In this document: one piece after another, positions 441 to 13,725 of the stretch | Layout: each line of letters begins with the position of its first letter | Position numbering within the stretch: the stretch's first letter is position 1 | NCBI GenBank assembly: GCA_041651015.1 | Contig: JBAZKA010000003.1 | Span: 42,572-106,571, forward strand | Source: Patescibacteria group bacterium | GTDB taxonomy: Bacteria > Patescibacteriota > Patescibacteriia > Magasanikbacterales > GWA2-37-8 | Reading direction: 5' to 3' | Length of the DNA stretch: 64,000 bases | The notes under the pieces: generated by a model | Seen by the model: only the letters and a program-made list of their open reading frames with translations | Databases searched by the model: none | Told to the model about the DNA's origin: nothing | Position numbers and translations under genes: made by a program

Positions 441-491
441 ATCAACAAAAATCCCCCGCACATGCGAGGGATTTGTTTGTTAATTTAGATT

Positions 492-1595
492 TTATTCCCG
501 ACTTACACTCGCCACCACGCCTGCGGCCGCGAGACAAACAAGCATGGACGATCCACCGTGGCTTACGAATGGTAATGTCACTCCGGTTAACGGCAAAAGT
601 CCGACCATGGCCCCGATGTTCATACAAGCCTGCCAAAAAAACCAAATACTGACACCGCAAGCCAGCAAAAATCCGTAACGGTCCGGCGCTTCTTTGGCAA
701 TCTTGAGCCCGCGCCAAGCAATGAGTAAAATCAAACCGATTAAGGCGCACGAAATAACAAAACCCATTTCCTCGGAGATGATGGCAAAAATTGAATCCGC
801 TTCCACTTCGGGTAAGTACTGGTATTTTTGGCGCGAATGTCCGTAGCCTAGCCCGCCCCACCCGCCCGAACCAATGGCCAAATACGCTTGGCTCACATGA
901 TACCCAATGCCTTGCGGGTCAAGCTCGGGATGCAAAAATATTTTTAATCGGTCCGAACGATACGGCGCCGTGATAATGAGAATAATTACTGCGACTACGC
1001 CCGCGGCCGCGAGCGCGGCCAAAATCGGCTTTGATGTGCCGGCCACAAATAAAATTCCCACAACCATGCCTGCAATCACCACCAGTGTGCCGATGTCGGG
1101 CTGAACCGCGATGAGAAGCAAAGCTGGCGCGATCACGCCAAGCACGGGCAAGAGTCCGTTTTTCCAATCATGCAAATTTCTATCCGGGTCAGACAATAAA
1201 TCAGCCATGATAAATATAATCGCGAGTTTGGCCAATTCCGCCGGCTGAAAATGCATGAACCCTAAATTTATCCATGACGCCGCTCCTTTACCAAATGACG
1301 TGCCTATATGCGGAATAAAAACCATCACCAAAAGCGCCAGGCAGGCAATATAAAATACTCTACCGAGTTTACGCCACAAATCTGTATTAAAACGCGCGCA
1401 AATCAAAAACGCCAGCAAGCCCGGCAAGACGCCTTTGAGCAGTTGGGATTTTATAAAATAATATGTATCGCCGTGAACGCTGTAGCCGACCGGAGCGCTG
1501 GCCGAAGTCAAACAAAATAAACCAAAAGCCAACAATATTCCAATGCTGACCATATAAAATCTATCGGCTTTTTTGGCATTACCGGCAAGCGCCAT
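492..1595 (-). CDS. ftsW: SEDS-family peptidoglycan glycosyltransferase (FtsW/RodA/SpoVE)
   Basis: Polytopic membrane protein with the SEDS C-terminal signature '...GGWGGLGYGHSRQKYQYLPEVEADSIFAIISEEMGF'. Sits at the distal end of a dcw-like operon; ftsW rather than rodA is inferred from that context. Confidence 0.8.
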   Translation of the reverse strand: MALAGNAKKADRFYMVSIGILLAFGLFCLTSASAPVGYSVHGDTYYFIKSQLLKGVLPGLLAFLICARFNTDLWRKLGRVFYIACLALLVMVFIPHIGTSFGKGAASWINLGFMHFQPAELAKLAIIFIMADLLSDPDRNLHDWKNGLLPVLGVIAPALLLIAVQPDIGTLVVIAGMVVGILFVAGTSKPILAALAAAGVVAVIILIITAPYRSDRLKIFLHPELDPQGIGYHVSQAYLAIGSGGWGGLGYGHSRQKYQYLPEVEADSIFAIISEEMGFVISCALIGLILLIAWRGLKIAKEAPDRYGFLLACGVSIWFFWQACMNIGAMVGLLPLTGVTLPFVSHGGSSMLVCLAAAGVVASVSRE

Positions 1596-1597
1596 AT

Positions 1598-1951
1598 TTA
1601 CAAATTAATATCCACAATCAAATATACGGCTAAAGCCAAAAATAATTCCAGCACGGCCGTAAAAACCGTGAGGATGCGCGACAAAAGTTTGTCCGAGTTG
1701 AAAGTGTATATACCGGCGATAAAATTTATTATTACGAAAGCTAAGCCGACCACGGGCATAATCAAAATTCTCCACCATTCACCGACATAATCCACGCCAA
1801 AAATAATATTGTAATGCAAAAATAATGTACCGCCTTGCGTTCCCAAATTAAAAAAAATATACGGCCACATAAAAACTTGCGCCAAAGCCGATATGGCAAG
1901 CGGAACAAACACCCACGGGTCCTTAAAAAAAACTTTTAATAGGTAAAACAT
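1598..1951 (-). CDS. small integral membrane protein (117 aa), hypothetical
   Basis: Three or more hydrophobic helices. Tightly packed between ftsW (2-nt gap) and the Clp-like gene (3-nt gap). Confidence 0.45.
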   Translation of the reverse strand: MFYLLKVFFKDPWVFVPLAISALAQVFMWPYIFFNLGTQGGTLFLHYNIIFGVDYVGEWWRILIMPVVGLAFVIINFIAGIYTFNSDKLLSRILTVFTAVLELFLALAVYLIVDINL

Positions 1952-1954
1952 AAT

Positions 1955-4723
1955 TTAAGCGGTTATAATTTTTCCTCCCTCGCCGATAATAATTTTGTCT
2001 CTACGTTTGACCGAACCGGACAAAAGCAATTCGGCCAGTTTATTTTCCACGCGTTCTTGCAAAGCCCGTCGCATCGGACGCGCGCCAAAATCCGGATCAT
2101 AACCCACGTCAGCCAAGAATTCCAAAGCCGCATCTTCAATAATAAGTTCAATGCCTTTGGCCTCCAAATCTTTGGCCGTGCGCGCCAACATAAAGCCCGC
2201 GATTTGTTTGATGTTTTCCCGAGTTAGGGCTCGGAACAGCACAATACCGTCAAAACGATTTAAAAATTCGGGACGGAAATATTGTTTGAGCTCTCCATGC
2301 AACAACCGGTCTTTGATAGCATCAGACGACAAACCGGCGCGCAATTGCTCGGCCACATACGAAGTGCCGGCGTTTGAAGTGGCGATAATAATTATATTGG
2401 TGAAATCCACCACTCGTCCGGTGCTGTCGGTCAATCGCCCGTCATCCATCACTTGCAAAAATAAATTTAAAATATCCGGGTCGGCTTTTTCAATTTCATC
2501 CAACAGTAGAAGCGCGAATGGCTGACGGCGGATGGCTTCGGTCAAAATACCGGTTCCCTTTTCTCCGGGCGCACCAATCAGACGATACACACCGGACTTG
2601 TCCATGTATTCACTCATATCCAAACGGATCATTCGGTTCTCTCCGCCAAAATAAACTTCGGCAATGGTTTTAGCTAATTCTGTTTTGCCCACGCCGGTCG
2701 GGCCGAGAAATAAAAAGTTGGCAATCGGGCGGGTCTTGGAACGAATTTCCACGCGGGCTCGGCGCAAAGCGTTGGCCACCAAATCCACGGCTTCATCCTG
2801 GCCGACCACGCGTTTGTGCATTGCCTCTTCCAACAACATTAATTTACTTGATTCATCGGACGTCACGGTCGTGGCTGGAATGCCGGTTTTGTCTGCCACC
2901 ACCTGCGCCACCTCTTCACCCGAGACAAGGGAATCCGCGCCCTTTTTGTTGCGCGCATGCGAGCCGGCTTCACTGGCAATTTCTATGGCACTGCCCGGCA
3001 AACAATTTTCATGTAAAAATCTTTGCGCCAATTGCACGGATTTTTCCACCGCGTCATAAGCAAAAAATACTTGATTCTTGTGTTCAATCAAAGCGACTTT
3101 GGATTCCAAAACTTGGATGGCTGAGTTCTCGTCCATTTCGTGCACTTCCACTTTAGCAAAAACATTTCCCAACGCCGAATTGGAAATATAACGCGCAAAA
3201 TCTTCATCCGTACTCGTGGCAATGGTCAAAAACCGGCCGCCGCGTAAAAAATCCGCCAGTGTTCCGGCCACATCCAAACTACTACCTTCGCCGGCTGATA
3301 CGCCAATCAACTCGTGGACATTTGGAATATACAAAATCACATTTCGCGCGCGGGAAATTTCATTCATCATGGCAATCAAGCGTTCAATCGCGCCCGAAGC
3401 AGTCGTACCGGAAAGAAGTGAGGATACATTTAATTTAACCAAACGTTTGTCGCTCAAACGGCGAGGAACATCGTCTTCAATCATTTTGTCGGCCAATCCT
3501 TCCACAATACTGCGCTTGCCCACGCCATTAGAACCGGTGAGAAGCACGTTGGCCGCTCCGCCGTCCACCACGCGGAAAATTTCTTCAAATTCTTTTTCGC
3601 GCGCCACGCAATAATCAAATTGATTGAGTTGGGCCAAACGCGTCATGTCATCGCTAAAATTATTCAAATACGGCGTGGCTAAAGCGGTCATGGCTTTGTC
3701 CATGCCATATTTGGAGCGATGCGAACCCGCCCGCGCATGCTTCACATATTCGCGATATAATCTTTCACGGATACGCGCCCATTCCACCACGTTCATTAAT
3801 TTATTTTTTTCAATTTCCATGTCATACAATAATTCTTGCAGGGGCGGAGATTGTTTGATGCAGGCGACCAAAAGTTCGGTGACGCTCACGTATTCTTGAT
3901 GAGCGCTGTAGGCTTCTTCATACGCGCGAAATAAAATTTGCTGTATGTCAGGCGATAGAAGGGGCATGGAATGCGCGTTTTGCACTTGCGACGGCGCGTC
4001 AAAAAGCGAAACAATCCCCTCTTGCAATGATTTGGCCGGCAAACCAAGCCGGATAAAAATATTACCGATGCGATTAAACGAAAGTAAAGTGTAAAATAAA
4101 TGATTGGCTTCCACGTGCGCATAGTTTCTTTTGTCCGCGAAATTATAGGCTTCGGCCAGCACAGCCATGGCCTCATCGGTGAATGTCTTGTCAATTGCTA
4201 ATCGTTTACTGGAAGGAATTTTTTGGATTTGCTTCCAATCGGTTAGCGCCTCGGACTCTTCGGACGCGGACGTATGCTCATAATCAAATTTTTCCACCTC
4301 TAAATTTTTCTTGCGTTCGGTAATTTTGCGATACCAAAAATAAAGCAAAAACAAGGCGCCGAGACAAAATAAAAATTTGGAATAATACGGCAAACCTAGA
4401 ATCGCTGTCAGCCACTGTTCGGGCAGAGAAATAAAAGCCTGATAGGCGCCGGCGCGATAAGCAAAAAATATTGCCCACACCCAGAAGTTGAGCCAGAGGA
4501 CAATAAAAGTAATCCGGCGAATTTTGTTTCCGATTCTTCGGCCATTCACCATGGCGATGTTGTATCGCGTCAGAGGATATGTCCAAGCCAGCCATTTACC
4601 GCGCATCCGCACGCCCATGGAACGCCCACGGCATTCTTTGCAGACGCCAAAACCGCGCAAACCCGTTCCTTTGCACGAAGGGCATGTCGCGACATTCATT
4701 GGCGGTAGTTGCTCAAACAGCAT
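1955..4723 (-). CDS. ClpA/ClpC-like double-AAA+ ATPase with N-terminal C4 zinc ribbon and 2 TM helices; D1 degenerate, D2 intact
   Basis: N-terminus 'CPSCKGTG...CKECRG' (CxxC-x10-CxxC), then hydrophobic helices (about residues 70-130), then Clp_N-like repeats. D1 Walker A is 'GSNGVGKRS' (the Thr after Lys is Arg). D1 Walker B is 'ILYIPNVHE' where Clp has 'ILFIDELH'. D2 is canonical: 'GPTGVGKT', 'LLLDEIEKA', 'ATSN', and arginine finger 'GARPMRR'. Confidence 0.8.
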   Translation of the reverse strand: MLFEQLPPMNVATCPSCKGTGLRGFGVCKECRGRSMGVRMRGKWLAWTYPLTRYNIAMVNGRRIGNKIRRITFIVLWLNFWVWAIFFAYRAGAYQAFISLPEQWLTAILGLPYYSKFLFCLGALFLLYFWYRKITERKKNLEVEKFDYEHTSASEESEALTDWKQIQKIPSSKRLAIDKTFTDEAMAVLAEAYNFADKRNYAHVEANHLFYTLLSFNRIGNIFIRLGLPAKSLQEGIVSLFDAPSQVQNAHSMPLLSPDIQQILFRAYEEAYSAHQEYVSVTELLVACIKQSPPLQELLYDMEIEKNKLMNVVEWARIRERLYREYVKHARAGSHRSKYGMDKAMTALATPYLNNFSDDMTRLAQLNQFDYCVAREKEFEEIFRVVDGGAANVLLTGSNGVGKRSIVEGLADKMIEDDVPRRLSDKRLVKLNVSSLLSGTTASGAIERLIAMMNEISRARNVILYIPNVHELIGVSAGEGSSLDVAGTLADFLRGGRFLTIATSTDEDFARYISNSALGNVFAKVEVHEMDENSAIQVLESKVALIEHKNQVFFAYDAVEKSVQLAQRFLHENCLPGSAIEIASEAGSHARNKKGADSLVSGEEVAQVVADKTGIPATTVTSDESSKLMLLEEAMHKRVVGQDEAVDLVANALRRARVEIRSKTRPIANFLFLGPTGVGKTELAKTIAEVYFGGENRMIRLDMSEYMDKSGVYRLIGAPGEKGTGILTEAIRRQPFALLLLDEIEKADPDILNLFLQVMDDGRLTDSTGRVVDFTNIIIIATSNAGTSYVAEQLRAGLSSDAIKDRLLHGELKQYFRPEFLNRFDGIVLFRALTRENIKQIAGFMLARTAKDLEAKGIELIIEDAALEFLADVGYDPDFGARPMRRALQERVENKLAELLLSGSVKRRDKIIIGEGGKIITA

Positions 4724-4724
4724 A

Positions 4725-5084
4725 TTAAATAATTGTCTTGGAATGAATCATGCAGTACACAACCGCGACCGGTAGAGCCAGCCACACAAAAAACAATGCG
4801 ACGCAAACCAACATCCAGCCAACCAGCGCGATAGTCCGCGCTATCACTTGAATCAAACGCATCAGAAAACTGATAATTCGCCCTTGAATATCATACTGGC
4901 CAAACATGGGCACAAAAATATTCTTAAACCAAAGCCCGGGCGCGAGCGTGGCATTGCCGGACATAAATACTTGCGCGCACCAAACAATGGCGTGTTTGGC
5001 GCCAACCGTGTACCACCAAACCGGAAAATAAAATAAATCAAGAATGGCCAAGCCAAAAATTCTGGTAAATACAGTGATAAACAT
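4725..5084 (-). CDS. small integral membrane protein (119 aa), hypothetical
   Basis: Hydrophobic ORF. Its stop overlaps the start of the Clp-like gene (ATGA-type coupling). Confidence 0.45.
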   Translation of the reverse strand: MFITVFTRIFGLAILDLFYFPVWWYTVGAKHAIVWCAQVFMSGNATLAPGLWFKNIFVPMFGQYDIQGRIISFLMRLIQVIARTIALVGWMLVCVALFFVWLALPVAVVYCMIHSKTII

Positions 5085-5159: not shown

Positions 5160-5588
5160 TTATTTTTTTGCCACCACTGACCCAACCGCGCTCAAATAGG
5201 TAATATTGTCCGCTCGGGTCAATCCGGCATTGGCAATTCGTTTCTCCAAAACAGGTAAGGAGTTGGCCGCCGCCATCTGCACATCCAAACCGCGAATTTC
5301 TTCATTGAGCGAAGCAACTTTATTTTGCAAATCACGCATTTCATAACCGCTGGTCGCGGCCGCGCTCACTTCGCGCACATACGCAAACACCAACAAGACT
5401 AGTATGCCCAGATAAATTCCGCGCGCCGCGCGCCCTTTTAACCATTCAGGGATGGCGCCACCGCGCGTTATTGTTTCCATATAACGGCGCAGGTAATTCA
5501 TCTGATATTTGATTTTTCGTTTTAGGGTCATAAAAAACGGTTGCAATATATTTGTCCCCTCTTCGCAAAAATTATTAAATTTTCTCAA
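5160..5588 (-). CDS. ftsL: FtsL-like septum formation initiator (single TM + coiled coil); true start probably at the internal Met near 5531
   Basis: Sits immediately downstream of rsmH as in dcw operons. Has a TM helix 'GIYLGILVLLVFAYV' followed by a coiled coil 'RDLQNKVASLNEEIRGLD'. The annotated start overlaps the rsmH 3' end by 14 nt. Confidence 0.5.
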   Translation of the reverse strand: MRKFNNFCEEGTNILQPFFMTLKRKIKYQMNYLRRYMETITRGGAIPEWLKGRAARGIYLGILVLLVFAYVREVSAAATSGYEMRDLQNKVASLNEEIRGLDVQMAAANSLPVLEKRIANAGLTRADNITYLSAVGSVVAKK

Positions 5589-6483
5589 TCACTCGCAATT
5601 TTGCGCTTCGCGAGCGTCGGTTTGCTTCTAATTCCGCCTCACCGGCCGTAATCGGTTTGGCTGTAATCAACTTGGCTTCACCGGACGACAGTGTCTGAAA
5701 ATAATGCTTTACAATTCTGTCCTCCAATGAATGAAAGGTGATCACCGCTAACCGCCCGTTGCCGGCCAAACTCTCGTAGGCTTGAGGCAATGCTTGTTTC
5801 AACACCTCAAGTTCGCGATTGACGGCAATGCGCAGGGCTTGAAAAACTTTGGTCGCCGGATGTATTCCGCCAATCCAAGGAATTTCTTTTTCAGTTTTCA
5901 ATTTACTCCGATAAACTTGTAAAATTATTTCCGCAAGCTCGCGCGTCGTCTTTATCTGATTAACTTTCCTTACAGCATCTATGGCTTCGGCAATTTCTTT
6001 TGATAAATCCTCCTCGCCAAATCGTCTGAAAATCTCCTCCAATTCTTTCACGTTCCATTCGTTTATAATTTTTTCCGCCGTCGTCTCCGAACCATTTACC
6101 GGCGTGTAGCGCATGTCCAAAGGTTCGTCACGTTCAAAACTAAACCCCCTGTTCCGTTCTTCAAATTGCGGAGATGACCAGCCCAAGTCCATTAAAATCG
6201 CGTCAGCCAATCCAAAATTATTGTCAACAATTATTTTTGATAAATTTTCAAAATTGTCGCGCGCGTAAACCACTTGCTCGCCGAATCTATATAAAAATCT
6301 TTTGGCGCGGAGCAATGATTCCGGGTCGGCGTCAATGCCGAGCAGTTTGCCTTTCGGGCCGATCGCTTCCAGAATCGCCTCGGCATGTCCCCCGTCGCCC
6401 AAGGTGCAGTCAATAACGCGACCGCCTTTTCTCAGGTTCATCGCTTCAATCGTTTCATGAATTAGGACCGGTTCGTGTCGCAT
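5575..6483 (-). CDS. rsmH: 16S rRNA (cytosine1402-N4)-methyltransferase RsmH/MraW
   Basis: 'HEPVLIHETIEAMNLRKGGRVIDCTLGDGGHAEAILE' and '...DLGWSSPQFE...' are the MraW signature. Follows mraZ. Confidence 0.9.
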   Translation of the reverse strand: MRHEPVLIHETIEAMNLRKGGRVIDCTLGDGGHAEAILEAIGPKGKLLGIDADPESLLRAKRFLYRFGEQVVYARDNFENLSKIIVDNNFGLADAILMDLGWSSPQFEERNRGFSFERDEPLDMRYTPVNGSETTAEKIINEWNVKELEEIFRRFGEEDLSKEIAEAIDAVRKVNQIKTTRELAEIILQVYRSKLKTEKEIPWIGGIHPATKVFQALRIAVNRELEVLKQALPQAYESLAGNGRLAVITFHSLEDRIVKHYFQTLSSGEAKLITAKPITAGEAELEANRRSRSAKLRVIEKI

Positions 6484-6504
6484 AACTTTATATCAATTTT
6501 CAAT

Positions 6505-6539
6505 ATTTCGTAATTTCGTAAATTTTCGTATTTCGTATC
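6505..6539. repeat. 4 tandem TTTCGTA(A) units in the mraZ-rsmH spacer
   Basis: 'atttcgtaatttcgtaaattttcgtatttcgtatc'. The same hexamer recurs in tandem at 13731-13768 and at 15706-15722. Confidence 0.5.
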
Positions 6540-6542
6540 TTT

Positions 6543-6974
6543 TTAGACTCCCAGCTCGGCCATTCTCTCGGCAATCTCTCCGCTTTCTTTTTCAGTTTTG
6601 GTTTTGAATTCGCCCCATTTGGTTTCATCCCAAATTTCCAAACGGTTATAAAGTCCGGCCACAATCACACTCTTTTTCAATCCGGCGAACTGGCGCAGAT
6701 ATTCAGGCAGGACCGCCCGGCCTTGTTTGTCCATTTCCACATCCATGGCGCCGGCAAGCATCAGGCGCGCGAACGCCCGGCTGTTAGCTTGGCTGATGGG
6801 CAAAGCCGCCAATTTCTCGGCCAGCTTTTCCCATTCTTTTTTGGTGTACAGAAACAAACAATTATCCAAACCTCTCGTCACCACCGCGCCTTTCACGAGT
6901 TCATTGCGAAACTTGACCGGTATGGCTAACCGGCCTTTTTCATCCAAATTGTGAGAGTATTCGCCGATGAACAT
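6543..6974 (-). CDS. mraZ: transcriptional regulator MraZ
   Basis: 'MFIGEYSHNLDEKGRLAIPVKFR' plus a second 'DKQGRAVLPEYLR' repeat (two MraZ/SpoVT-AbrB half-domains). Confidence 0.9.
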   Translation of the reverse strand: MFIGEYSHNLDEKGRLAIPVKFRNELVKGAVVTRGLDNCLFLYTKKEWEKLAEKLAALPISQANSRAFARLMLAGAMDVEMDKQGRAVLPEYLRQFAGLKKSVIVAGLYNRLEIWDETKWGEFKTKTEKESGEIAERMAELGV

Positions 6975-7016: not shown

Positions 7017-7236
7017 GCACAGTTTGTGGGGCGTAGCGCAAGCGAAGCCCCACCACTTCTCACCACTACACTCCATTTTATACCACAATCAAACACCCGT
7101 CAACACCATTCTCCATTTTTATTTTGGCTAATGTAAAACAAAAAATCCCGCTGTAAGCGGGATTGTGGATAAGTTTATTGATAAAATCAGGATATGCGCC
7201 TCCTCCATCACAGCAATGGCAGACCTCAACTACTTT

Positions 7237-7910: not shown

Positions 7911-9272
7911 TTACACCTCCACCGCCTCCTCCGGATCAGCCACGGAAACTCGCACGCCCAATTCACTCTTAATTTTATCGGCTAAAGGCTGGCTTTGCTC
8001 GGGCTCGCCGTGATTCAAGACCACGCATTTGGGCGTTGAACCGTTGTTTTTAATCCAATTAAAAATTTTAATTCTATCCGCGTGCGCCGAGAGCACATCA
8101 ATAAACTCCACATGGCATTTGACTGCCACGTGTTCATTCAAGACGTCCACATGAGTCGCGCCATCCAAAATCTTCCTGCCCGGCGTGTGCATGGCTTGGA
8201 AACCGGTGAGAAATAAAGTATTGCGATTATCAGACAAATAGCGCAACGCGTGATACTGGATGCGTCCGCCGTTCATCATACCCGAACCGGCAATAATAAT
8301 TTTTTGGCCAATGACCGTATTGATGCGCTTGGAATCATCGCGCGAACGGGTCATTTTCAATCCGCCGAATTGGAACAAATCATCACCGGACCGGATATAC
8401 CTTTCCGCTTCTTCATCAAAATATTGCGTGTAGCGGTTAAACACGCCCGTTGCGTTGATGGCGAGCGGGCTGTCCAAAAAAATCGGAATGTTCGGCGGTA
8501 AAACTTGGTCGCGGTCAATCAAATCATTTAAATCATACAAAATTTCCTGGGTGCGTTCCACGGAAAAAGCCGGCATCATCAAAGTACCGCCCCGCTCAAG
8601 CGCCTCGGCCACAACTTTTTTAATGGCAGACTTGCGGTCAATACTCGTGTCGTGTTCGCGGTCGCCATAAGTGGACTCGCAAATCAGCAAATAAACATCT
8701 TTGGGCAAGGCGTCGGTATCGCGTAAAATCGGGACATTCACATTGCCCAGGTCGCCGGAAAAAACAACTTTTTTGCCGGCTAAATTTATTTCCAAAAATG
8801 CCGAGCCGAAAATATGACCGGCTTCATAAAATTTAAACCTGATGTTTGATGCCGGTAAATCAAAATCATCATAATAATCCACTTGGCGCATCATACCGAT
8901 AACCTTGGCCACATCATCTAAATTATACAGAGCCGGCCGGCCAAATTTCCGGGCGTGATATTCCATGATTTCGCATGCATCCTCCAAAATCAATCTGGCG
9001 ATTTCAATAGTCGGCGGGGTGGCATAAATTTGCCCGCTGAATCCGCGCTTTATGAGCAACGGCAAGCGTCCGACATGGTCCAAATGCGCGTGCGTGACAA
9101 ACACAGCCGTGAGAGCGCTGGCGTCAAAAGCAAATGGGTCGGCATTACGGTCTTCCACAAAGTCCCCTCCCTGAAACATCCCGCAATCAACCAAAATTTT
9201 AATATCTCCCTCTTCCAGCAAACTGCACGAACCGGTGACTTCTCCGGCCGCGCCAAAAAATGATAATTTCAT
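7911..9272 (-). CDS. metallo-beta-lactamase / beta-CASP family ribonuclease (RNase J/CPSF-like, COG1236-type)
   Basis: 'FGAAGEVTGSCSLLEEGDIKILVDCGMFQGG' and 'HAHLDHVGRLP' (the HxHxDH MBL motif). About 450 aa with a beta-CASP C-terminus. Confidence 0.7.
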   Translation of the reverse strand: MKLSFFGAAGEVTGSCSLLEEGDIKILVDCGMFQGGDFVEDRNADPFAFDASALTAVFVTHAHLDHVGRLPLLIKRGFSGQIYATPPTIEIARLILEDACEIMEYHARKFGRPALYNLDDVAKVIGMMRQVDYYDDFDLPASNIRFKFYEAGHIFGSAFLEINLAGKKVVFSGDLGNVNVPILRDTDALPKDVYLLICESTYGDREHDTSIDRKSAIKKVVAEALERGGTLMMPAFSVERTQEILYDLNDLIDRDQVLPPNIPIFLDSPLAINATGVFNRYTQYFDEEAERYIRSGDDLFQFGGLKMTRSRDDSKRINTVIGQKIIIAGSGMMNGGRIQYHALRYLSDNRNTLFLTGFQAMHTPGRKILDGATHVDVLNEHVAVKCHVEFIDVLSAHADRIKIFNWIKNNGSTPKCVVLNHGEPEQSQPLADKIKSELGVRVSVADPEEAVEV

Positions 9273-9280
9273 GATATGAC

Positions 9281-9335
9281 GTTAAATAATCCGCTCTTGG
9301 CGAATCGCCCCCAGGGGGCATTTAACAGGTTAAAT
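9281..9335. repeat. Inverted-repeat element GTTAAAT...CGCCCCCAGGGGGC...ATTTAACAGG (family 2); second copy at 41148-41197
   Basis: 'cgcccccagggggcatttaacaggttaa' here versus 'cgcccccaaggggcgatttaacagggttaa' at 41172. Lies in the divergent promoter region between the RNase gene and the 9396 gene. Confidence 0.55.
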
Positions 9336-9395
9336 TATACCACATTTTACCCCCTACACAAATTCATCTATTTCTGATACAATGTCGCTATCATT

Positions 9396-10139
9396 ATGAA
9401 TCAAGAAGAACTGCTTAAAGACGTGGAAATAGTGGAGCCGCCAATGCAAGAGTTCAGAAAACGCGGACACTGGTTTGCCACTGCTTGCTTGTCCGGCTCA
9501 GGCTGTGTTTTGTTATTTATCGCGTCCATTGTCATTGGAATCAAATTTTATATTGGTGCCGGGCCGGCCACTGTCAAAAATCTGCCGACAAACTTCCCGA
9601 CCGATGTGCCGATTTACGACCAATACAACATTGACAAAATTACTTACATTTCCGGACGATATAAAAGCCGTTCTATGGAGATGGCTACTTTCTTTCCCAA
9701 ACTGGTCCTGTCGCCTGTGATTTCGCGCGAACAAAATGCGCCGTCAACCTCGGCCAAAGAAAACGGAAATATATTCAAAGAAGTCTTCCGCATGATCTTG
9801 AAACCAATCGGCGACTCTCGCGATATGATTCAAGTTGAATGGCGCGACATCACCAGCGATGTAAATACCATGATAACTTATTATAAAAGAAATTTAACGA
9901 CTAACGGTTTTACGATTGAATCAGAAACTCAAGGCAACAACTATCGTCAATTAACTTTCAGCCGGCAAGATAATTTGAGCGGGACAATTTTCGCGGAATT
10001 TTCCGACCAAAAAACCAAAAAAGTAACTTACGCGTTTATCATGGTAAATTTGCCCTATCCGGCCGAAGTCGTGAGCACGAACACCCAAACCCTCACCACT
10101 ACAACATCAACCGAACCTGAATCAAATGATACTCTCTAG
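9396..10139 (+). CDS. hypothetical N-terminally membrane-anchored protein with Thr-rich C-terminus (247 aa)
   Basis: TM 'CVLLFIASIVIGIKFYIG'. C-terminal 'TQTLTTTTSTEPESNDT'. Overlaps the murJ start, so probably cotranscribed. Confidence 0.45.
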   Translation: MNQEELLKDVEIVEPPMQEFRKRGHWFATACLSGSGCVLLFIASIVIGIKFYIGAGPATVKNLPTNFPTDVPIYDQYNIDKITYISGRYKSRSMEMATFFPKLVLSPVISREQNAPSTSAKENGNIFKEVFRMILKPIGDSRDMIQVEWRDITSDVNTMITYYKRNLTTNGFTIESETQGNNYRQLTFSRQDNLSGTIFAEFSDQKTKKVTYAFIMVNLPYPAEVVSTNTQTLTTTTSTEPESNDTL

Positions 10140-11745
10140 CTTAAACAACCAATCCAAAACCGTCACCGGCGCGGCTTTGATTATTGCGACCGCGACTTTG
10201 GCCAGCCGTTTTGTCGGCTTGATTCGCGACCGCATCCTCGCCCATTATTATGGCGCAGGCCCGGTCATGGACGCTTATTACGCGGCTTTCAAAGTTCCCG
10301 ACTTGGTTTATACTCTCTTAATTGTTGGCGCGCTGACAGCCGGATTCATTCCGATTTTTACTAAACTATTTTTTCAAGGCGAAGACAAAACTCCGGCTTG
10401 GCGCTTGGCTAATAATATTTTCAACATCGCCGGCGCGGCTCTGATAATTCTATGTAGCATCGGGATAATCCTATCCAAACACATTGTCCCCATTGTGGCG
10501 CCCGGATTTTCCGGCGATAATCAACATCTGGCGATTGCCTTTACCCGAATAATGTTTTTGTCTCCCCTGCTCCTCGGCCTATCTATGACCTTGGGCGGTG
10601 TCTTGCAATCGCTCCGCCGATTTGTGCTTTATTCCATTGCCCCGATTTTTTATAATTTGGGAATTATTATCGGGGTATCCGTGTTCGCCAAATTTATCGG
10701 CCCGACCGGAGTGGCCTGGGGTGTGGTGTTTGGCGCGGCCATGCACCTCGCGCTCATGGCCATTGGCGCCTACAACTCCGGCTGGAAATGGTCATGGGTT
10801 TTTGATTTAAAAGACGCAGGCACACGCACAGTGGGCAAACTTATGCTACCGCGCACAGTGGGCGTGGCTGTCTCCGAAATAAATATTTTGATTACCACCA
10901 TGCTCGCGTCGCTCCTGCCTATTGGCAGTGTGGCGGTGTACAATTACGCCGCCAACCTACAAGCGGTTCCGACAGGCATTATCGGCATCCCGTTTGCCCT
11001 CGCCGTATTTCCGGTTTTGTCCGCGGCTGCGGCCAGGAATGATATGGCGGACTTTACCAAGAACCTGTCGTCCACCATCGGCAAAATTCTATTTTTGATT
11101 ATTCCCCTTTCCATTATTTTGCTTTTACTCCGCGCGCAAATTGTCCGCGTTATTCTCGGCACCGGGCAATTTGATTGGACCGCCACCACCAATACGGCCA
11201 ACGCGCTCGCGTTTTTTGCTTTTGGACTTTTCGCCCAATCGCTCGTCCCACTGTTTGCCCGCGCATTTTTTTCGCTGTCGGACACCAAGACGCCTCTCGC
11301 CATTGGCGCGTTTTCCGAAATCATCGCCATTGGTTCGGCTTTAATTTTAATGCGTAGTTTGGGTGTGGCGGGATTGGCCTTGGCTTCATCCATTGGCGCG
11401 ATTATCAACGCGTCTTTGCTTGCGGTATTTCTTCGCGTACAAATACCGACATTTAATGGCGCAAAAATCATTGCTTCGCTTTTAAAAATTTCCGCGGCCG
11501 CGATTATCATGGCCGTGGTGGTTCAAATCTTAAAATATCCGTTAAATAAAATTTTTAACTTGGATTATTTCTGGGGCGTCTTTGGCCAAGGCGTAATTGC
11601 CGGAGTTGTCGGCCTCGTAGTTTACGCGGGAATATGCTGGTTGCTCAAAGTGCCGGAGTTAACTGAAATAAAACAATCATTCGCCCGCCGTTGGTTTAGA
11701 GCGCGGAGTGTCGGCGCCACGGATATTATTGATTCAAAGGAATGA
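10126..11745 (+). CDS. murJ: lipid II flippase MurJ (MviN)
   Basis: 'ATATLASRFVGLIRDRILAHYYGAGPVMDAYYAAFKVPDLVYTLLIVGALTAGFIPIF' is the MurJ N-terminal signature. About 14 TM helices. Confidence 0.85.
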   Translation: MILSSLNNQSKTVTGAALIIATATLASRFVGLIRDRILAHYYGAGPVMDAYYAAFKVPDLVYTLLIVGALTAGFIPIFTKLFFQGEDKTPAWRLANNIFNIAGAALIILCSIGIILSKHIVPIVAPGFSGDNQHLAIAFTRIMFLSPLLLGLSMTLGGVLQSLRRFVLYSIAPIFYNLGIIIGVSVFAKFIGPTGVAWGVVFGAAMHLALMAIGAYNSGWKWSWVFDLKDAGTRTVGKLMLPRTVGVAVSEINILITTMLASLLPIGSVAVYNYAANLQAVPTGIIGIPFALAVFPVLSAAAARNDMADFTKNLSSTIGKILFLIIPLSIILLLLRAQIVRVILGTGQFDWTATTNTANALAFFAFGLFAQSLVPLFARAFFSLSDTKTPLAIGAFSEIIAIGSALILMRSLGVAGLALASSIGAIINASLLAVFLRVQIPTFNGAKIIASLLKISAAAIIMAVVVQILKYPLNKIFNLDYFWGVFGQGVIAGVVGLVVYAGICWLLKVPELTEIKQSFARRWFRARSVGATDIIDSKE

Positions 11746-11937
11746 TATGATGTCCCACATGCTTACAAATATACTTTTTCGTTTCATCTTCTTTCTACCA
11801 TACTTCATGCTTGCCGCCTCAGTAATATTATTTCAAAAATATAAAAACCGCTTATTTAGAGTATATTTATTAATAATGACCACTATATTGGTCCCCACAT
11901 ATTGGATTCTATTATCGCTATGGACAGGGACAGTTTA

Positions 11938-13725
11938 ATGAGAAATTTTTGCATCATCGCCCACATTGACCACGGGAAATCCACCCTGGCCGATAGATTT
12001 TTGGAATTGACTGGAACAGTTTCACATAGGGACATGAAAGAACAATTATTAGATTCCATGGATCTGGAACGCGAACGTGGTATCACCATCAAACTCACGC
12101 CGGTCAGAATGAACTACACGGCCAATGACGGCAAAAAATATATTTTAAATTTAATTGATACGCCCGGACACGTGGATTTTAATTACGAGGTGTCCCGCTC
12201 GCTCGCGGCCGTGGAAGGCGCCATACTTCTCGTGGACGCGACTCAAGGCGTGCAAGCGCAAACGATCGGCAATTTGTATTTGGCGCTGGAACAAAATTTG
12301 ACCATCGTGCCGGTTATCAACAAAATTGACACTCCGGCCGCTAATGTTGAAAAAACTAAAGAAGAAATTATCCATTTAATCGGCTGTAAAGATGAAGATA
12401 TTTTGCTCGCTTCGGGCAAAACCGGCCAAGGTGTGCCGGAAATATTAGAACGCATTATCACGGTTGTTCCCCCACCAATGATTACCGCCGATCGTCCGGC
12501 GCGCGCTTTGATTTTTGATTCTTCATACAACGAATACAAAGGCGTGGTTGCTTCGGTCAGAATGATTGACGGCCAAATGAAAAAGGGCGACAAAATATTA
12601 TTAATGACCACCAAAACTCCCGCCGATGTTTTGGAGATCGGCTACTACACGCCAAAATTTAAACCAGCCGATGTTCTCGTAAGCGGTGAAACCGGTTATA
12701 TTGTCACAGGCCTGAAAGAAGTCCGCGAGTGCCGTGTCGGCGACACCATTACATCTATCAGCGAACCGGCGAGCGAAGCCTTGCCCGGTTACAAAGAAGT
12801 TAAGCCTATGGTCTTTGCCGGAATTTTCCCCAAAGAAGGCAACGAATACCAAGAATTGCGCGACGCGATAGATAAATTAAAATTAAGCGACTCCTCGCTT
12901 TATTATGAACCCGAACATTCGCAGGCGCTCGGCTTTGGTTTCCGCTGTGGTTTTCTCGGCATGCTTCATCTGGATATTTTTCAGGAACGTTTGCGCCGTG
13001 AGTTTAATATTGATATTGTCATTACCGTGCCGAGCGTGGCTTACAAAATTATCAAGACTGCCGGCGACGAAATAATTATTCATGGCCCTCAAGAAATGCC
13101 CGACCCGTCGCACATCCGCGAAGTCCACGAGCCATGGATGTCCTTGGACATCATCACGCCCAAAGAATATGTTGGTAACGTGATGGGGCTAATTTCCGAA
13201 CGCAAAGGCCGTTATGTCAACACTGAATATCTCTCGGCCGGAGCCGGACAACGCGCGGCCATTCATTATATTATCCCTCTTGCCTCGCTCATCACGGATT
13301 TTTATGATAAACTAAAAACTGTCACTTCCGGCTACGCTTCCATGAATTATGAGTATCGCGGTTATGAACCGACTAAAGTGGTAAAACTGGATATTTTAAT
13401 CGCCGAGGATCCGGTGGAAGAATTGTCCACATTAGTTTGGGATGATGAAGCTTACAAAACCGGCAAAAAAATTGTGGAATCTCTCAAAGAATCTTTGCCT
13501 CGCCAACAATTTGAAATTAAAATTCAAGCCGCTATTGGTGGAAAGATCGTGGCCTCGGAACGATTGAGCGCCTACCGCAAAGACGTCTTGGCAAAATTAT
13601 ACGGCGGAGACGTCACGCGTAAAATGAAACTTTTGGAAAAACAGAAAAAGGGAAAACGTAAAATGGCTTCGCACGGCAAAGTGGACATTCCCACTGAAGC
13701 ATATTTAAAAGTGCTAAAACGATAA
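11938..13725 (+). CDS. lepA: elongation factor 4 (LepA)
   Basis: 'RNFCIIAHIDHGKSTLADR', 'DTPGHVDF', 'NKID', and the C-terminal LepA domain '...YGGDVTRKMKLLEKQKKGKRKM'. Start set at the conserved MRNF, not the upstream in-frame Met of the track ORF. Confidence 0.92.
   Translation: MRNFCIIAHIDHGKSTLADRFLELTGTVSHRDMKEQLLDSMDLERERGITIKLTPVRMNYTANDGKKYILNLIDTPGHVDFNYEVSRSLAAVEGAILLVDATQGVQAQTIGNLYLALEQNLTIVPVINKIDTPAANVEKTKEEIIHLIGCKDEDILLASGKTGQGVPEILERIITVVPPPMITADRPARALIFDSSYNEYKGVVASVRMIDGQMKKGDKILLMTTKTPADVLEIGYYTPKFKPADVLVSGETGYIVTGLKEVRECRVGDTITSISEPASEALPGYKEVKPMVFAGIFPKEGNEYQELRDAIDKLKLSDSSLYYEPEHSQALGFGFRCGFLGMLHLDIFQERLRREFNIDIVITVPSVAYKIIKTAGDEIIIHGPQEMPDPSHIREVHEPWMSLDIITPKEYVGNVMGLISERKGRYVNTEYLSAGAGQRAAIHYIIPLASLITDFYDKLKTVTSGYASMNYEYRGYEPTKVVKLDILIAEDPVEELSTLVWDDEAYKTGKKIVESLKESLPRQQFEIKIQAAIGGKIVASERLSAYRKDVLAKLYGGDVTRKMKLLEKQKKGKRKMASHGKVDIPTEAYLKVLKR

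What the first reader, a model, noticed from the sequence alone, without database searches (positions are those of the whole stretch)
4333..4723. Zinc-ribbon + two-TM N-terminal module on the Clp-like ATPase
The N-terminus is CPSCKGTG-x9-CKECRG, a C4 zinc ribbon. It is followed by about two hydrophobic helices rich in W/F/Y, and then Clp_N repeats. A Clp-class unfoldase tethered to the membrane through its own N-terminal helices is atypical; such proteins are normally cytosolic. No obvious ClpP-docking IGF/LGF loop was seen in D2, so it may act without a peptidase.
Basis: partly seen in the sequence, partly recalled or inferred. Interest (0 to 1): 0.5.

Follow-up and report, generated by a model that had tools for sequence, protein, structure and literature searches.

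The report
Membrane-anchored degenerate Clp-like ATPase, Patescibacteria
The zinc ribbon and two membrane helices are real and conserved, but the protein behind them is a Clp relative specific to candidate-phyla bacteria that has lost the substrate-gripping loops, has a dead first ATPase ring, always follows a small membrane-protein gene, and here lies inside the cell-division operon.

Summary
The minus-strand gene 1955-4723 (922 aa) starts with an invariant C4 zinc ribbon (CxxCxGxG-x6-CxxCxG). Two transmembrane helices follow, with a predicted N-in/C-in topology, then a Clp_N-like domain, D1 and D2, with no M-domain. The 'unfoldase' reading is only partly supported. Across the family, D1 has no Walker B acids, no arginine fingers and no pore-loop tyrosine. 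D2 keeps every catalytic residue, but its GYVG pore loop is replaced by a shortened, non-aromatic GEKGTG. The position of the ClpP-docking tripeptide is variable, so there is no ClpP loop. No clpP lies in the window or in 44 related loci. More than 1,000 homologues exist, essentially all from Patescibacteria (Magasanikbacteria here). In 41 of 41 long-form loci a conserved ~119-aa helical-hairpin membrane protein is encoded immediately upstream. In this clade the pair sits in mraZ-rsmH-ftsL-[pair]-ftsW/mraY. Sister clades outside that cluster keep a D2 tyrosine. Falkowbacteria carry ~600-aa forms with no D2, next to mraY. Best reading: a ClpP-independent, two-component membrane AAA+ module recruited to envelope and division functions, which does not thread substrates in the canonical way. 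I found no literature on it.

The parts
1955..4723 (-). Whole gene: 922-aa membrane-anchored Clp/Hsp100-like AAA+ protein ('ClpL' in this report). Start ATG at 4721-4723, one base after the stop codon of the upstream partner gene.
   Evidence: ORF list. Pfam AAA_2, ClpB_D2-small and AAA_lid_9. NCBIfam ClpA model covered 4-732/734 in one stretch, but 518 bits against a cutoff of 993. 1,179 homologues of ~920 aa. AF2 pLDDT 81. Foldseek top hits are ClpC, ClpB and ClpA.
4625..4684 (-). C4 zinc ribbon, residues 14-33: CPSCKGTG-x6-CKECRG (CxxCxGxG type).
   Evidence: The four Cys are invariant. Sub-threshold matches to Pfam DZR_2 (E 0.006) and DnaJ_CXXCXGXG (E 0.011). The N-terminal profile against PDB gives anti-TRAP E 0.04 and DnaJ CR domain E 0.87.
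4562..4624 (-). Conserved beta-hairpin and juxtamembrane motif, residues 34-54: G37, R41, W44-L45-x-W47, Y49-P-L-T-R-Y54. It continues into the basic stretch R62-R63...R69.
   Evidence: Column conservation of 90% or more. Strands 36-40 and 43-47, with the helix starting at 53 in the AF2 model. The pattern Wx[YF]PLTR[YFQ][HN]L recovered 33 species-level genomes.
4457..4513 (-). Transmembrane helix 1, residues 71-89, with conserved N79, W81, W83 and Y89.
   Evidence: Hydropathy. Family-wide hydrophobicity and flanking charge. Conservation. AF2 helix 53-90.
4331..4387 (-). Transmembrane helix 2, residues 113-131, with the conserved L-F-W-L-G (118-122), Y128, W130-Y131-R132.
3734..4186 (-). Clp_N-like N-domain, residues ~180-330, two four-helix repeats. 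It is reached from TM2 by a ~45-residue linker with conserved V143-E144, Y148 and W163.
   Evidence: HMMER alignment to ClpC residues 5-150. Pfam Clp_N 18.2 bits, below the 20.7 cutoff. PF02861 precomputed on homologues. AF2 helices 183-301.
2939..3667 (-). D1, a degenerate AAA+ module (pseudo-ATPase), residues ~353-595. Walker A is GSNGVGKRS (397-405). The 'Walker B' is ILYIPN (463-468). The pore loop is SGTTASGAIE (438-447). The former RR fingers read GN (519-520). No M-domain is inserted.
   Evidence: Residue-by-residue alignment to B. subtilis and S. aureus ClpC. Family column counts. Divergent representatives. ClpC residues 406-460 (the M-domain) have no counterpart.
1988..2851 (-). D2, a catalytically complete AAA+ module plus D2-small domain, residues ~625-912. 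Walker A is GPTGVGKT (674-681). Walker B is LLLLDE (738-743). Sensor-1 is N784, the Arg finger is R823 and sensor-2 is GAR882.
   Evidence: Pfam AAA_2 at 5.7e-53 and ClpB_D2-small at 9.4e-25. All these residues are invariant in 66 sequences and in 121 sequences.
2549..2575 (-). D2 pore-loop-1 position, residues 717-725: G-A-P-G-E-K-G-T-G. It replaces the canonical GAPPGYVGY, has no aromatic residue and is four residues shorter.
   Evidence: Alignment to ClpC. PGEKG[TS]G in 64 of 121 sequences, and no aromatic residue at these positions in any of the 121. A sister clade keeps GAPPGY[SAG]G.
2327..2341 (-). Position equivalent to the ClpP-docking [LIV]-G-[FL] loop, residues 795-799: R-A-G-L-S. 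It forms a short four-residue turn between two helices.
   Evidence: HMMER aligns it to ClpC YVGFN / FAGFG. In the family, position 1 is A/N/E/S/Q/K and position 3 is L/V/I/T/A/M. In divergent members the position is unrecognisable. AF2 gives helix 787-795, turn, helix 800-809, with pLDDT about 81.
4725..5084 (-). Partner gene 'small119': a 119-aa membrane protein with no Pfam or NCBIfam family. It is predicted to be a helical hairpin (helices 2-47 and 66-114) capped by the invariant loop APGLW..N.FVPMFGQYDxQGR.
   Evidence: No family hit. 172 homologues, all 'hypothetical' and from Patescibacteria. AF2 pLDDT 93.8. A homologue lies immediately upstream of the Clp-like gene in 41 of 41 long-form loci. 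No structural or sequence match in PDB.
5160..5588 (-). FtsL-like gene. The listed TTG start at 5588 overlaps rsmH. The ATG at 5531 would give 123 aa, matching the homologues.
   Evidence: NCBIfam FtsL_Actino domain E 1.6e-5, below cutoff. The position is conserved in related loci.
5575..6974 (-). rsmH (5575-6483) and mraZ (6543-6974), the head of the dcw cluster.
   Evidence: ORFs. Homologous genes in related loci carry Pfam Methyltransf_5 and MraZ. tblastn gives 57-85% identity in 31 loci.
492..1951 (-). small117 (1598-1951, a membrane protein with no family) and ftsW (492-1595), directly downstream of the Clp-like gene.
   Evidence: Pfam FTSW_RODA_SPOVE 3.4e-97. The small117 + ftsW pair is conserved in the five closest loci. 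Other lineages have mraY at this position.
449..474 (-). The strongest terminator-like hairpin of the region (11 pairs, 6 G-C, T-rich tail), just after ftsW. Together with the promoter-like site at 7075-7103 it brackets a seven-gene unit.
   Evidence: Consensus scan only. All intergenic gaps inside the unit are 75 nt or less.
7075..7103 (-). Promoter-like site (TTGACG-17-TAAAAT, 10 of 12) upstream of mraZ.
   Evidence: Consensus scan only. This is not evidence of function.

Best explanation
The gene encodes a Patescibacteria-specific, integral-membrane derivative of the Hsp100/Clp class-I AAA+ family.

Architecture:
- A cytoplasmic C4 zinc ribbon and a conserved beta-hairpin precede a two-helix membrane hairpin. 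Both ends are predicted to be cytoplasmic.
- This holds the N-domain/D1 face of the presumed hexamer close to the membrane.
- D1 is a structural pseudo-ATPase.
- D2 is the only ring that can hydrolyse ATP.
- There is no M-domain and no ClpP-docking loop, so the protein works without ClpP and without the DnaK/MecA-type control exerted through an M-domain.

Partner and context: it acts together with the small helical-hairpin membrane protein encoded immediately upstream, with which it is probably translationally coupled. In this lineage (Magasanikbacteria and relatives) the pair has been recruited into the mraZ-rsmH-ftsL-...-ftsW/mraY operon.

Loss of threading features: in the same lineage the protein has lost the aromatic pore-loop residues of both rings.

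Inferred function: D2 ATP turnover is used to remodel, assemble or regulate membrane complexes of cell-envelope synthesis and division. It is not used to thread polypeptides processively into a peptidase.

Shown here: the anatomy, motif states, conservation, gene pairing, operon context and taxonomic range. Inferred: hexamer formation, topology, the physical interaction with the partner, and the client or function.
For: Anatomy and topology.

D1 degeneracy and D2 integrity: alignment to ClpC structures, column counts in 121 homologues, invariant columns in 66, and 29 divergent representatives.

No M-domain: the ClpA model is covered in one stretch, and ClpC residues 406-460 have no counterpart.

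No ClpP loop: the tripeptide position is variable and forms a short ordered turn in the model. No clpP or clpX was found by tblastn in the window or in 36 related loci, and none is among the called genes of the eight further loci.

Partner gene: 58-64% identical and adjacent in 36 of 36 Magasanikbacteria-type loci. It is also adjacent in five divergent loci, including ones outside the dcw cluster and one without a zinc ribbon (hmmsearch E 2e-38 to 9e-25). Only one base separates its stop codon from the Clp-like start codon.

dcw context: mraZ-rsmH-ftsL lie upstream in every locus with enough flank, and ftsW or mraY downstream. A promoter-like and a terminator-like site bracket the unit.

D2 is dispensable in some lineages: complete ~600-aa forms without D2 sit next to mraY-rplU-recR, the same downstream neighbours as the long form.

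Sister clades: the Kerfeldbacteria clade keeps GAPPGY in D2 and lies outside the dcw cluster. This suggests that the loss of the threading motif is derived in the lineage of this window.
Against: There is no experimental datum of any kind. Function rests on gene context, which for the family as a whole is not the dcw cluster.

D2 keeps a complete catalytic set, and the N-domain is retained. Both features would also fit a substrate-processing machine with unconventional pore loops.

One non-dcw member (P0259) also lacks the D2 tyrosine, so the link between the dcw setting and degeneracy is not clean.

Whether the genome encodes ClpP elsewhere could not be tested.

Topology and hexamer formation are predictions.
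Confidence: 0.55

Rival explanations
1. One reading: a membrane-tethered, peptidase-independent unfoldase or dislocase. A hexamer sits under the membrane with its N-domain/D1 face up. It pulls membrane or membrane-proximal proteins out and unfolds them by threading through D1 and D2, in the manner of FtsH, Msp1 or Cdc48, and releases them into the cytosol.
For: The N-terminal anchor geometry places the entry face at the membrane. All D2 catalytic residues are invariant. The N-domain is retained. Sister clades of the same architecture keep a D2 pore-loop tyrosine, GAPPGY[SAG]G, so this was probably the ancestral activity. There is no ClpP loop.
Against: In this protein and its whole clade neither ring has an aromatic pore-loop residue, and the D2 loop is shortened by four residues to GEKGTG. 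From established AAA+ knowledge, the pore-loop-1 aromatic residue is required for polypeptide gripping in ClpA, ClpB, ClpX and Hsp104. D1 has lost its pore loop, Walker B and Arg fingers in every member examined. Positional orthologues without any D2 exist.
Confidence: 0.25
2. A membrane-bound ClpP-dependent protease, functionally analogous to FtsH. The R-A-G-L turn at 795-799 would be a divergent ClpP-docking loop (compare ClpA IGL and S. aureus ClpC AGF), with ClpP encoded elsewhere in the genome.
For: HMMER aligns RAGLS with the ClpC YVGFN / FAGFG docking loop. The spacing from sensor-1 to FRPEF (33 residues) resembles my recollection of the E. coli ClpA sequence (about 31 residues); this was not checked with a tool. 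Databases annotate homologues as 'ATP-dependent Clp protease ATP-binding subunit'.
Against: The tripeptide is not conserved. Position 1 is A/N/E/S/Q/K and position 3 is L/V/I/T/A/M/S/E within the close family, and the motif is unrecognisable in divergent members. It is modelled as a four-residue ordered turn, not an extended loop. There is no pore-loop tyrosine to feed a peptidase. No clpP is present in the window or in any of 44 loci (and the locus gene tables). The database names are automatic transfers, and all NCBIfam scores are far below cutoff.
Confidence: 0.07
3. An essentially non-enzymatic membrane scaffold (a pseudoenzyme). The conserved core would be zinc ribbon, TM hairpin, N-domain and dead D1, which organise partners at the membrane. 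D2 would be a regulatory nucleotide switch or a vestige.
For: Falkowbacteria-type forms of ~600 aa lack D2 altogether, yet keep the N-terminal module, N-domain and degenerate D1, and the same position next to mraY. D1 is dead but strongly conserved in sequence.
Against: In all long forms the D2 Walker A and B, sensor-1, Arg finger and sensor-2 are invariant over 30-100% identity. This argues for selection on ATP hydrolysis. The partner small119 accompanies only the D2-containing forms, which suggests an active two-component machine.
Confidence: 0.1

Closest known systems
ClpA (E. coli), class-I Clp/Hsp100
   Same: Same domain order after the anchor: N-domain, D1, D2 with D2-small, and no M-domain. 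The NCBIfam ClpA model is covered end to end in one stretch. The Foldseek and phmmer matches are highly significant.
   Different: This protein has an N-terminal zinc ribbon and two TM helices. D1 is catalytically dead. There is no KYRG and no GYVG pore-loop tyrosine. There is no conserved IGL ClpP loop. The score is 518 bits against the 993-bit cutoff.
ClpC and ClpE (Firmicutes, Actinobacteria)
   Same: These are the best sequence and structure matches (32-40% identity over D1-D2). From prior knowledge, ClpE, like ClpX, carries an N-terminal C4 zinc-binding domain, so a zinc module at the N-terminus of a Clp ATPase has a precedent.
   Different: ClpC and ClpE are soluble, have a short M-domain (ClpC 406-460, absent here), a [VLA]GF ClpP loop, and active D1 and D2 with pore-loop tyrosines. 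The zinc motif here is of the CxxCxGxG (DnaJ/anti-TRAP) type and is followed by TM helices.
ClpB / Hsp104 disaggregases
   Same: They act without ClpP. The D2 of this protein scores best against ClpB models, and the segment between sensor-1 and FRPEF is short in both.
   Different: ClpB has a long coiled-coil M-domain for Hsp70 coupling, two active rings and tyrosine pore loops, and it is soluble. None of this applies here.
FtsH, and Msp1/ATAD1 or Bcs1 (membrane-anchored AAA+; analogy only)
   Same: N-terminal TM anchoring places the AAA+ ring directly under the membrane. FtsH also uses two N-terminal TM helices.
   Different: These have a single AAA module of the classic clade, with aromatic pore loops. 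FtsH has a fused M41 peptidase and a periplasmic domain. This protein has an Hsp100 double-ring body, no peptidase domain, and only a ~22-residue external loop.
Torsin ATPases (analogy from prior knowledge)
   Same: Clp/Hsp100-D2-related AAA+ proteins that are membrane-associated, lack the aromatic pore-loop residue, and depend on small membrane-spanning partner proteins (LAP1, LULL1).
   Different: Torsins are eukaryotic and luminal, have a single ring, and lack their own Arg finger, which the partner supplies. Here the D2 Arg finger R823 is invariant, and the partner small119 has no AAA-like fold. No homology beyond the AAA+ core was tested.
DnaJ cysteine-rich domain / anti-TRAP zinc knuckle
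   Same: The CxxCxGxG ... CxxCxG signature. The best matches of the N-terminal profile in PDB are anti-TRAP and DnaJ CR domains, and Pfam gives DnaJ_CXXCXGXG.
   Different: All matches are below significance or cutoff (E 0.01-0.9). There is a single zinc centre only, with a six-residue spacer, and it is fused to a TM hairpin.

Membership tests
Clp/Hsp100 class-I AAA+ (ClpA/B/C superfamily) | Two tandem AAA+ modules with a D2-small domain and a Clp_N-type N-domain | tested here: met
   Pfam AAA_2, ClpB_D2-small and AAA_lid_9. phmmer against ClpC, ClpB and ClpA structures gives E down to 2e-127 and covers 180-918. Foldseek E 1e-59. The Clp_N hit itself is weak (18.2 bits, cutoff 20.7).
Clp/Hsp100 class-I AAA+ (ClpA/B/C superfamily) | Functional Walker A, Walker B and Arg fingers in both D1 and D2 | tested here: not met
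   D2 is complete. In D1 the Walker A is GVGK[RK][ST], the Walker B is hhhh[HNQ]N, and the RR fingers are replaced by G/S-N. This holds family-wide.
Clp/Hsp100 class-I AAA+ (ClpA/B/C superfamily) | Aromatic pore-loop-1 residues (D1 KYRG, D2 GYVG) for polypeptide threading | tested here: not met
   D1 reads AGTTPAGAVE and D2 reads GAPGEKGTG in the consensus. No aromatic residue occurs at the D2 loop positions in 121 of 121 sequences. The D1 motif is absent in all TM-anchored relatives examined, while soluble ClpB hits in the same list have it.
NCBIfam equivalogs ClpA, ClpB, ClpV, ClpG and ClpK | Score at or above the curated whole-protein cutoff | tested here: not met
   ClpB 558.7 against 1232.1; ClpA 518.2 against 993.15; TssH 438.7 against 884.95; ClpG 436 against 1900.
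ClpP-partner unfoldases (ClpA, ClpC, ClpE, ClpX) | Conserved hydrophobic [LIV]-G-[FL] docking loop in the last AAA module | tested here: not met
   The equivalent position reads RAGLS here. It varies across the family (A/N/E/S/Q/K - G - L/V/I/T/A/M) and is lost in divergent members. It is modelled as a short ordered turn.
ClpP-partner unfoldases (ClpA, ClpC, ClpE, ClpX) | A clpP gene in the same genome | not testable with these tools
   No clpP or clpX by tblastn in the 64-kb window or in 36 related loci of 3-23 kb, and none in the gene tables of eight more loci. Whole genomes could not be scanned.
ClpB/Hsp104 disaggregases | Coiled-coil M-domain inserted in the D1 small subdomain | tested here: not met
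   ClpB models match in two separate stretches and the ClpA model in one. ClpC residues 406-460 are unmatched between query residues 593 and 591.
FtsH-type membrane AAA+ proteases | Single classic-clade AAA module fused to an M41 zinc peptidase | tested here: not met
   No Peptidase_M41 or other peptidase domain in Pfam or NCBIfam scans. The body is an Hsp100 double ring.
DnaJ-type cysteine-rich zinc finger (PF00684) / anti-TRAP (PF15777) | CxxCxGxG repeats that score above the family threshold | tested here: inconclusive
   The motif is present and invariant. However, Pfam DnaJ_CXXCXGXG scores 16.4 bits against a 32.7 cutoff, and the PDB profile hits are anti-TRAP E 0.04 and DnaJ E 0.87. One homologue hits Anti-TRAP at E 4.5e-4.
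dcw (division and cell wall) cluster gene | Conserved position inside the mraZ-rsmH-ftsL-...-mraY/ftsW gene order | tested here: met
   True for the window and for 31 or more related loci. Not true for more distant clades of the family.

The most novel reading that the evidence does not exclude
The small hairpin protein and the zinc-ribbon/TM-anchored pseudo-Hsp100 form a previously undescribed two-component membrane AAA+ machine confined to Patescibacteria. In the Magasanikbacteria-type lineages it has become a dedicated divisome or peptidoglycan-synthesis factor. It occupies the operon slot between ftsL and mraY/ftsW, which is where ftsI-murE-murF lie in the usual bacterial dcw gene order (prior knowledge, not checked here). 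It would use D2 ATP hydrolysis through a charged, non-aromatic pore loop (E721-K722), acting on membrane complexes, or even on non-protein clients, by a non-threading mechanism. This would be an Hsp100 fold repurposed as a membrane-embedded regulator.
Probability: 0.25. Interest if true: 0.8.

Novelty: new variant of a known kind. Interest (0 to 1): 0.6.

Why it matters
Hsp100/Clp proteins are a textbook example of soluble, tyrosine-loop-driven protein threading machines. This family contradicts that picture in several ways. Its members are integral membrane proteins, always pair with a small membrane partner, and have a permanently dead D1. In a large clade they keep a fully competent D2 ATPase but no aromatic pore loops.

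If D2 activity is needed for function, the family gives a natural test of what an Hsp100 ring can do without canonical substrate grip.

For Patescibacteria, whose division and envelope biogenesis are almost unknown and which lack many canonical factors, the family flags a lineage-specific gene pair embedded in the core division operon. That pair is a concrete candidate for experiments. Both proteins can be expressed heterologously, and genetic tools exist so far only for Saccharibacteria among these phyla (my recollection, not checked here).

There is also an annotation point. More than 1,000 database entries named 'ATP-dependent Clp protease ATP-binding subunit ClpC/ClpA' are very probably misnamed.

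Tried and rejected
1. ClpP in the neighbourhood. A weak ClpX hit at 36873-37076 lies in dnaK. I first guessed that gene was FtsH, which was wrong.

2. Literature. Seven full-text searches were run, combining Patescibacteria, CPR or Magasanikbacteria with Clp, ClpC, ClpP, dcw, membrane-anchored or Hsp100. None found a description of this family. The clpP genes in the TM7x paper belong to the host.

3. Function of small119. There was no Pfam or NCBIfam family, no PDB sequence hit, and no significant Foldseek hit (best E 2.0, a PspA/Vipp1 hairpin). The afdb50 library was unavailable.

4. R770 as the D2 Arg finger. R770 is variable (R/H/K/Q), and I considered whether it was the finger. I rejected this after counting residues against the E. 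coli ClpB sequence, recalled from memory. The finger corresponds to R823 in PEFLNRFD, which is invariant.

5. A clean rule of 'dcw context = degenerate pore loop'. Rejected, because P0259 lies outside the dcw cluster and also lacks the D2 tyrosine.

6. Fusion of small119 to the Clp-like protein. None of the 143 representative clusters shows one. The slightly longer entries look like start-codon miscalls.

7. Geometry of the zinc site.

Full report
**1. What is at the coordinates**

The interval 4333-4723 is the 5' end, on the minus strand, of a 922-codon ORF at 1955-4723. The first 131 residues contain three elements.
- The motif C14-P-S-C17-K-G-T-G ... C28-K-E-C31-R-G.
- A predicted beta-hairpin and the conserved string W44-L-x-W47-x-Y-P-L-T-R-Y54, followed by a basic cluster (R62, R63, K67, R69).
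- Two hydrophobic segments, 71-89 and 113-131.

The hydropathy values are Kyte-Doolittle 1.90 and 1.23, with Wimley-White octanol sums of -18.5 and -13.1 kcal/mol. In 121 aligned homologues both segments remain hydrophobic. The flanks carry 4.7 (before TM1) and 3.9 (after TM2) K+R, against 2.0 in the ~22-residue connecting loop. By the positive-inside rule this predicts that the zinc ribbon and the whole ATPase body are cytoplasmic.

AlphaFold2 on a 66-sequence alignment (mean pLDDT 81) gives strands up to residue 47, a continuous helix 53-90, two short helices in the loop, and a helix 113-135.

The four cysteines are invariant in 66 of 66 full-length sequences and in all 29 divergent representatives.

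The zinc motif is of the CxxCxGxG type. Its only database resemblances are to the DnaJ cysteine-rich domain and to anti-TRAP, and all are sub-threshold.

**2. The body of the protein**

Residues 180-918 align to ClpC, ClpB and ClpA structures (E down to 2e-127). The model finds the same structures by Foldseek. The ClpA equivalog model is covered 4-732/734 in one stretch, whereas ClpB models split in two. ClpC residues 406-460, the M-domain, have no counterpart. The order is therefore anchor, Clp_N-like N-domain, D1, D2, with no M-domain. All curated NCBIfam cutoffs are missed by a factor of about two.

The residue-level alignment to ClpC and column counts over 121 homologues show two contrasting rings.

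D1 is degenerate:

| Feature | Canonical | Here / family consensus |
|---|---|---|
| Walker A | GxxGVGKT | GSNGVGKRS (family: K-[RK]-[ST]) |
| Walker B | hhhhDE | ILYIPN (family: hhhh[HNQ]N) |
| Pore loop | AGTKYRGEFE | SGTTASGAIE (family: AGTTPAGAVE) |
| Arg fingers | ERRFQ | LGNVF |

D2 keeps every catalytic residue, each invariant: Walker A GPTGVGKT, Walker B LLLLDE, sensor-1 N784, Arg finger R823 (PEFLNRFD) and sensor-2 GAR882.

The D2 pore loop, however, is changed. The canonical GAPPGYVGYEEGG is replaced by GAPGEKGTG, which is four residues shorter and has no aromatic residue. This version is itself strongly conserved: PGEKG[TS]G in 64 of 121 sequences, and no aromatic residue in any of them.

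**3. The ClpP question**

HMMER places R-A-G-L-S (795-799) opposite the ClpC docking loop (YVGFN in B. subtilis, FAGFG in S. aureus). A cryptic loop therefore had to be considered.

Across the close family the first position is A/N/E/S/Q/K and the third is L/V/I/T/A/M/S/E. In divergent members the site is unrecognisable. The model shows a four-residue ordered turn between helices 787-795 and 800-809. That is not a conserved hydrophobic docking element.

tblastn with ClpP and ClpX finds nothing in the window or in 36 related loci. The gene tables of eight further loci contain no Clp protease. Whether clpP lies elsewhere in the genome could not be tested.

**4. Distribution**

- A full-length search returned 1,179 proteins. 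The best 120 are 57-93% identical, ~920 aa, and cover the whole query. Where named, they come from Candidatus Magasanikbacteria, the Parcubacteria group or the Patescibacteria group.
- A profile of the N-terminal 175 residues, searched against 1.84 billion cluster representatives, found only 143 clusters. All are either fragments, ~900-960-aa proteins, or a distinct ~583-631-aa class. No other fusion partner was seen.
- The pattern Wx[YF]PLTR.. recovered 33 species-level genomes. Most are titled Magasanikbacteria. Eleven are labelled 'uncultured Gammaproteobacteria' and one Candidatus Udaeobacter, although they carry the same Magasanikbacteria-type locus.
- A search seeded with a divergent member (P0249) showed that the same anchored architecture extends to Kerfeldbacteria, Nomurabacteria and other Patescibacteria.
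- In that clade the D2 loop is GAPPGY[SAG]G, so the tyrosine is kept. The D1 KYRG motif is missing in essentially every anchored protein and present in the soluble ClpB hits of the same list.
- Loss of the D2 tyrosine therefore looks derived in the lineage of this window.

**5. Gene neighbourhood**

The stop codon of a 119-codon ORF (4725-5084) lies one base from the ATG of the Clp-like gene. This small protein has no Pfam or NCBIfam family. Its 172 homologues are all hypothetical and all from Patescibacteria. It is predicted with pLDDT 93.8 to be a long helical hairpin (helices 2-47 and 66-114), with an invariant connecting loop APGLW..N.FVPMFGQYDxQGR and a strongly hydrophobic C-terminal half-helix.

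A homologue lies immediately upstream of the Clp-like gene in 36 of 36 Magasanikbacteria-type loci. It is also there in all five divergent loci examined. These include loci outside the dcw cluster and one whose Clp-like protein has lost the zinc ribbon (hmmsearch E 2e-38 to 9e-25).

The pair is flanked by mraZ, rsmH and an FtsL-like gene upstream. Downstream lies either a 117-aa membrane protein plus ftsW (the window and its closest relatives) or mraY. In the window, the best promoter-like site (7075-7103) and the strongest terminator-like hairpin (449-474) bracket exactly these seven genes (consensus matches only). From established knowledge of the dcw gene order, the pair sits where ftsI-murE-murF normally lie.

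**6. The short forms**

Proteins of ~600 aa from Falkowbacteria and other Patescibacteria have the zinc ribbon, both TM helices, the N-domain and a mostly degenerate D1. They stop at the D1/D2 linker (...VPYTKILK). They are complete genes followed by mraY, rplU and recR. Those are the downstream neighbours of the long form in L001, L002 and L040. They have no small119 neighbour.

So the N-terminal two-thirds can persist without any active ATPase ring. The partner protein goes with the D2-containing forms.

**7. Interpretation**

Shown:
- an integral-membrane Hsp100 derivative with a dead D1;
- an intact D2 catalytic site with non-aromatic pore loops;
- no M-domain and no ClpP loop;
- an obligatory small membrane partner;
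- a dcw-operon location in this lineage.

Inferred:
- It forms a ring under the membrane with the N-domain/D1 face towards the bilayer.
- It interacts with small119.
- In this clade it acts as an ATP-driven remodeller or regulator of envelope and division membrane complexes, not as a processive unfoldase.

I put 0.55 on the combined statement. The architectural part is close to certain and the functional part is much less so. The rivals are:
- a genuine peptidase-free dislocase, 0.25;
- a ClpP-coupled membrane protease, 0.07;
- an essentially non-enzymatic scaffold, 0.10.

**8. Novelty**

Seven full-text searches found no paper describing this family. Databases call it ClpC, ClpA or 'AAA family ATPase'.

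It belongs to a known superfamily. It fails several features that define its functional classes: an active D1, aromatic pore loops, an M-domain or a ClpP loop, and the curated cutoffs. It adds a new anchor module and a new partner. I therefore rate it a new variant of a known kind.

Noticed in passing
window 1598-1951 (-): A 117-aa membrane protein with no family lies between the Clp-like gene and ftsW. It is conserved at 52-61% identity in the five closest loci only (L003-L007). Other lineages have mraY directly after the Clp-like gene.
   Followed up: partly
window 5160-5588 (-): The FtsL-like ORF is listed from a TTG that overlaps the end of rsmH. The ATG at 5531 would give 123 aa, matching homologues of 119-123 aa, so the true start is probably 5531.
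   Followed up: partly
L037 1470-3272; L038 780-2675; L039 1688-3469: ~600-aa D2-less forms of the anchored Clp-like protein (Falkowbacteria and other Patescibacteria). They are complete genes. In two of the three loci a signal peptidase I gene lies upstream, and in two of the three mraY follows. None has a small119 neighbour.
   Followed up: yes
P0085 (L002 10001-12670) and L044 6001-8715: Two anchored homologues have lost the zinc ribbon but keep the beta-hairpin/WLYW motif, the TM helices and the small119 partner. The zinc ribbon is therefore dispensable in some lineages.
   Followed up: partly
L008, L010, L014-L017, L019, L020, L024, L036 (record titles); L026: GTDB representative records titled 'uncultured Gammaproteobacteria bacterium' (TPA assemblies), and one titled 'Candidatus Udaeobacter sp.', carry the Magasanikbacteria-type mraZ-rsmH-ftsL-small119-Clp-like locus. 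The organism labels look wrong.
   Followed up: no
window 7911-13725 and L003-L007, L021-L025 etc.: There is extended conserved synteny upstream of mraZ: a divergently oriented metallo-beta-lactamase/beta-CASP (RNase J-like) gene, a ~250-aa protein, murJ and lepA. The block recurs in most Magasanikbacteria loci.
   Followed up: partly
window 35775-37727 (-): dnaK (Pfam HSP70, E 3e-254) is the only other chaperone gene identified in the window. It gave a spurious weak tblastn hit with ClpX.
   Followed up: yes
window 47630-49567 (-): A 645-aa protein combines a HAAS domain, a PspC domain, a PspC-type TM region and DUF2807/toastrack (DUF4097) domains. This is a membrane stress-sensor-like architecture.
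   Followed up: no
window 22468-24384 (-): A 638-aa subtilase (Peptidase_S8, E 8e-47).
   Followed up: no
L041, L042, L043, L044: Outside the dcw-embedded clade, the small119 + anchored-Clp pair has its own recurrent neighbourhood: tgt and a DsbA-like thioredoxin upstream, and a class-II tRNA synthetase, an M16 peptidase and an AI-2E-family transporter downstream.
   Followed up: no
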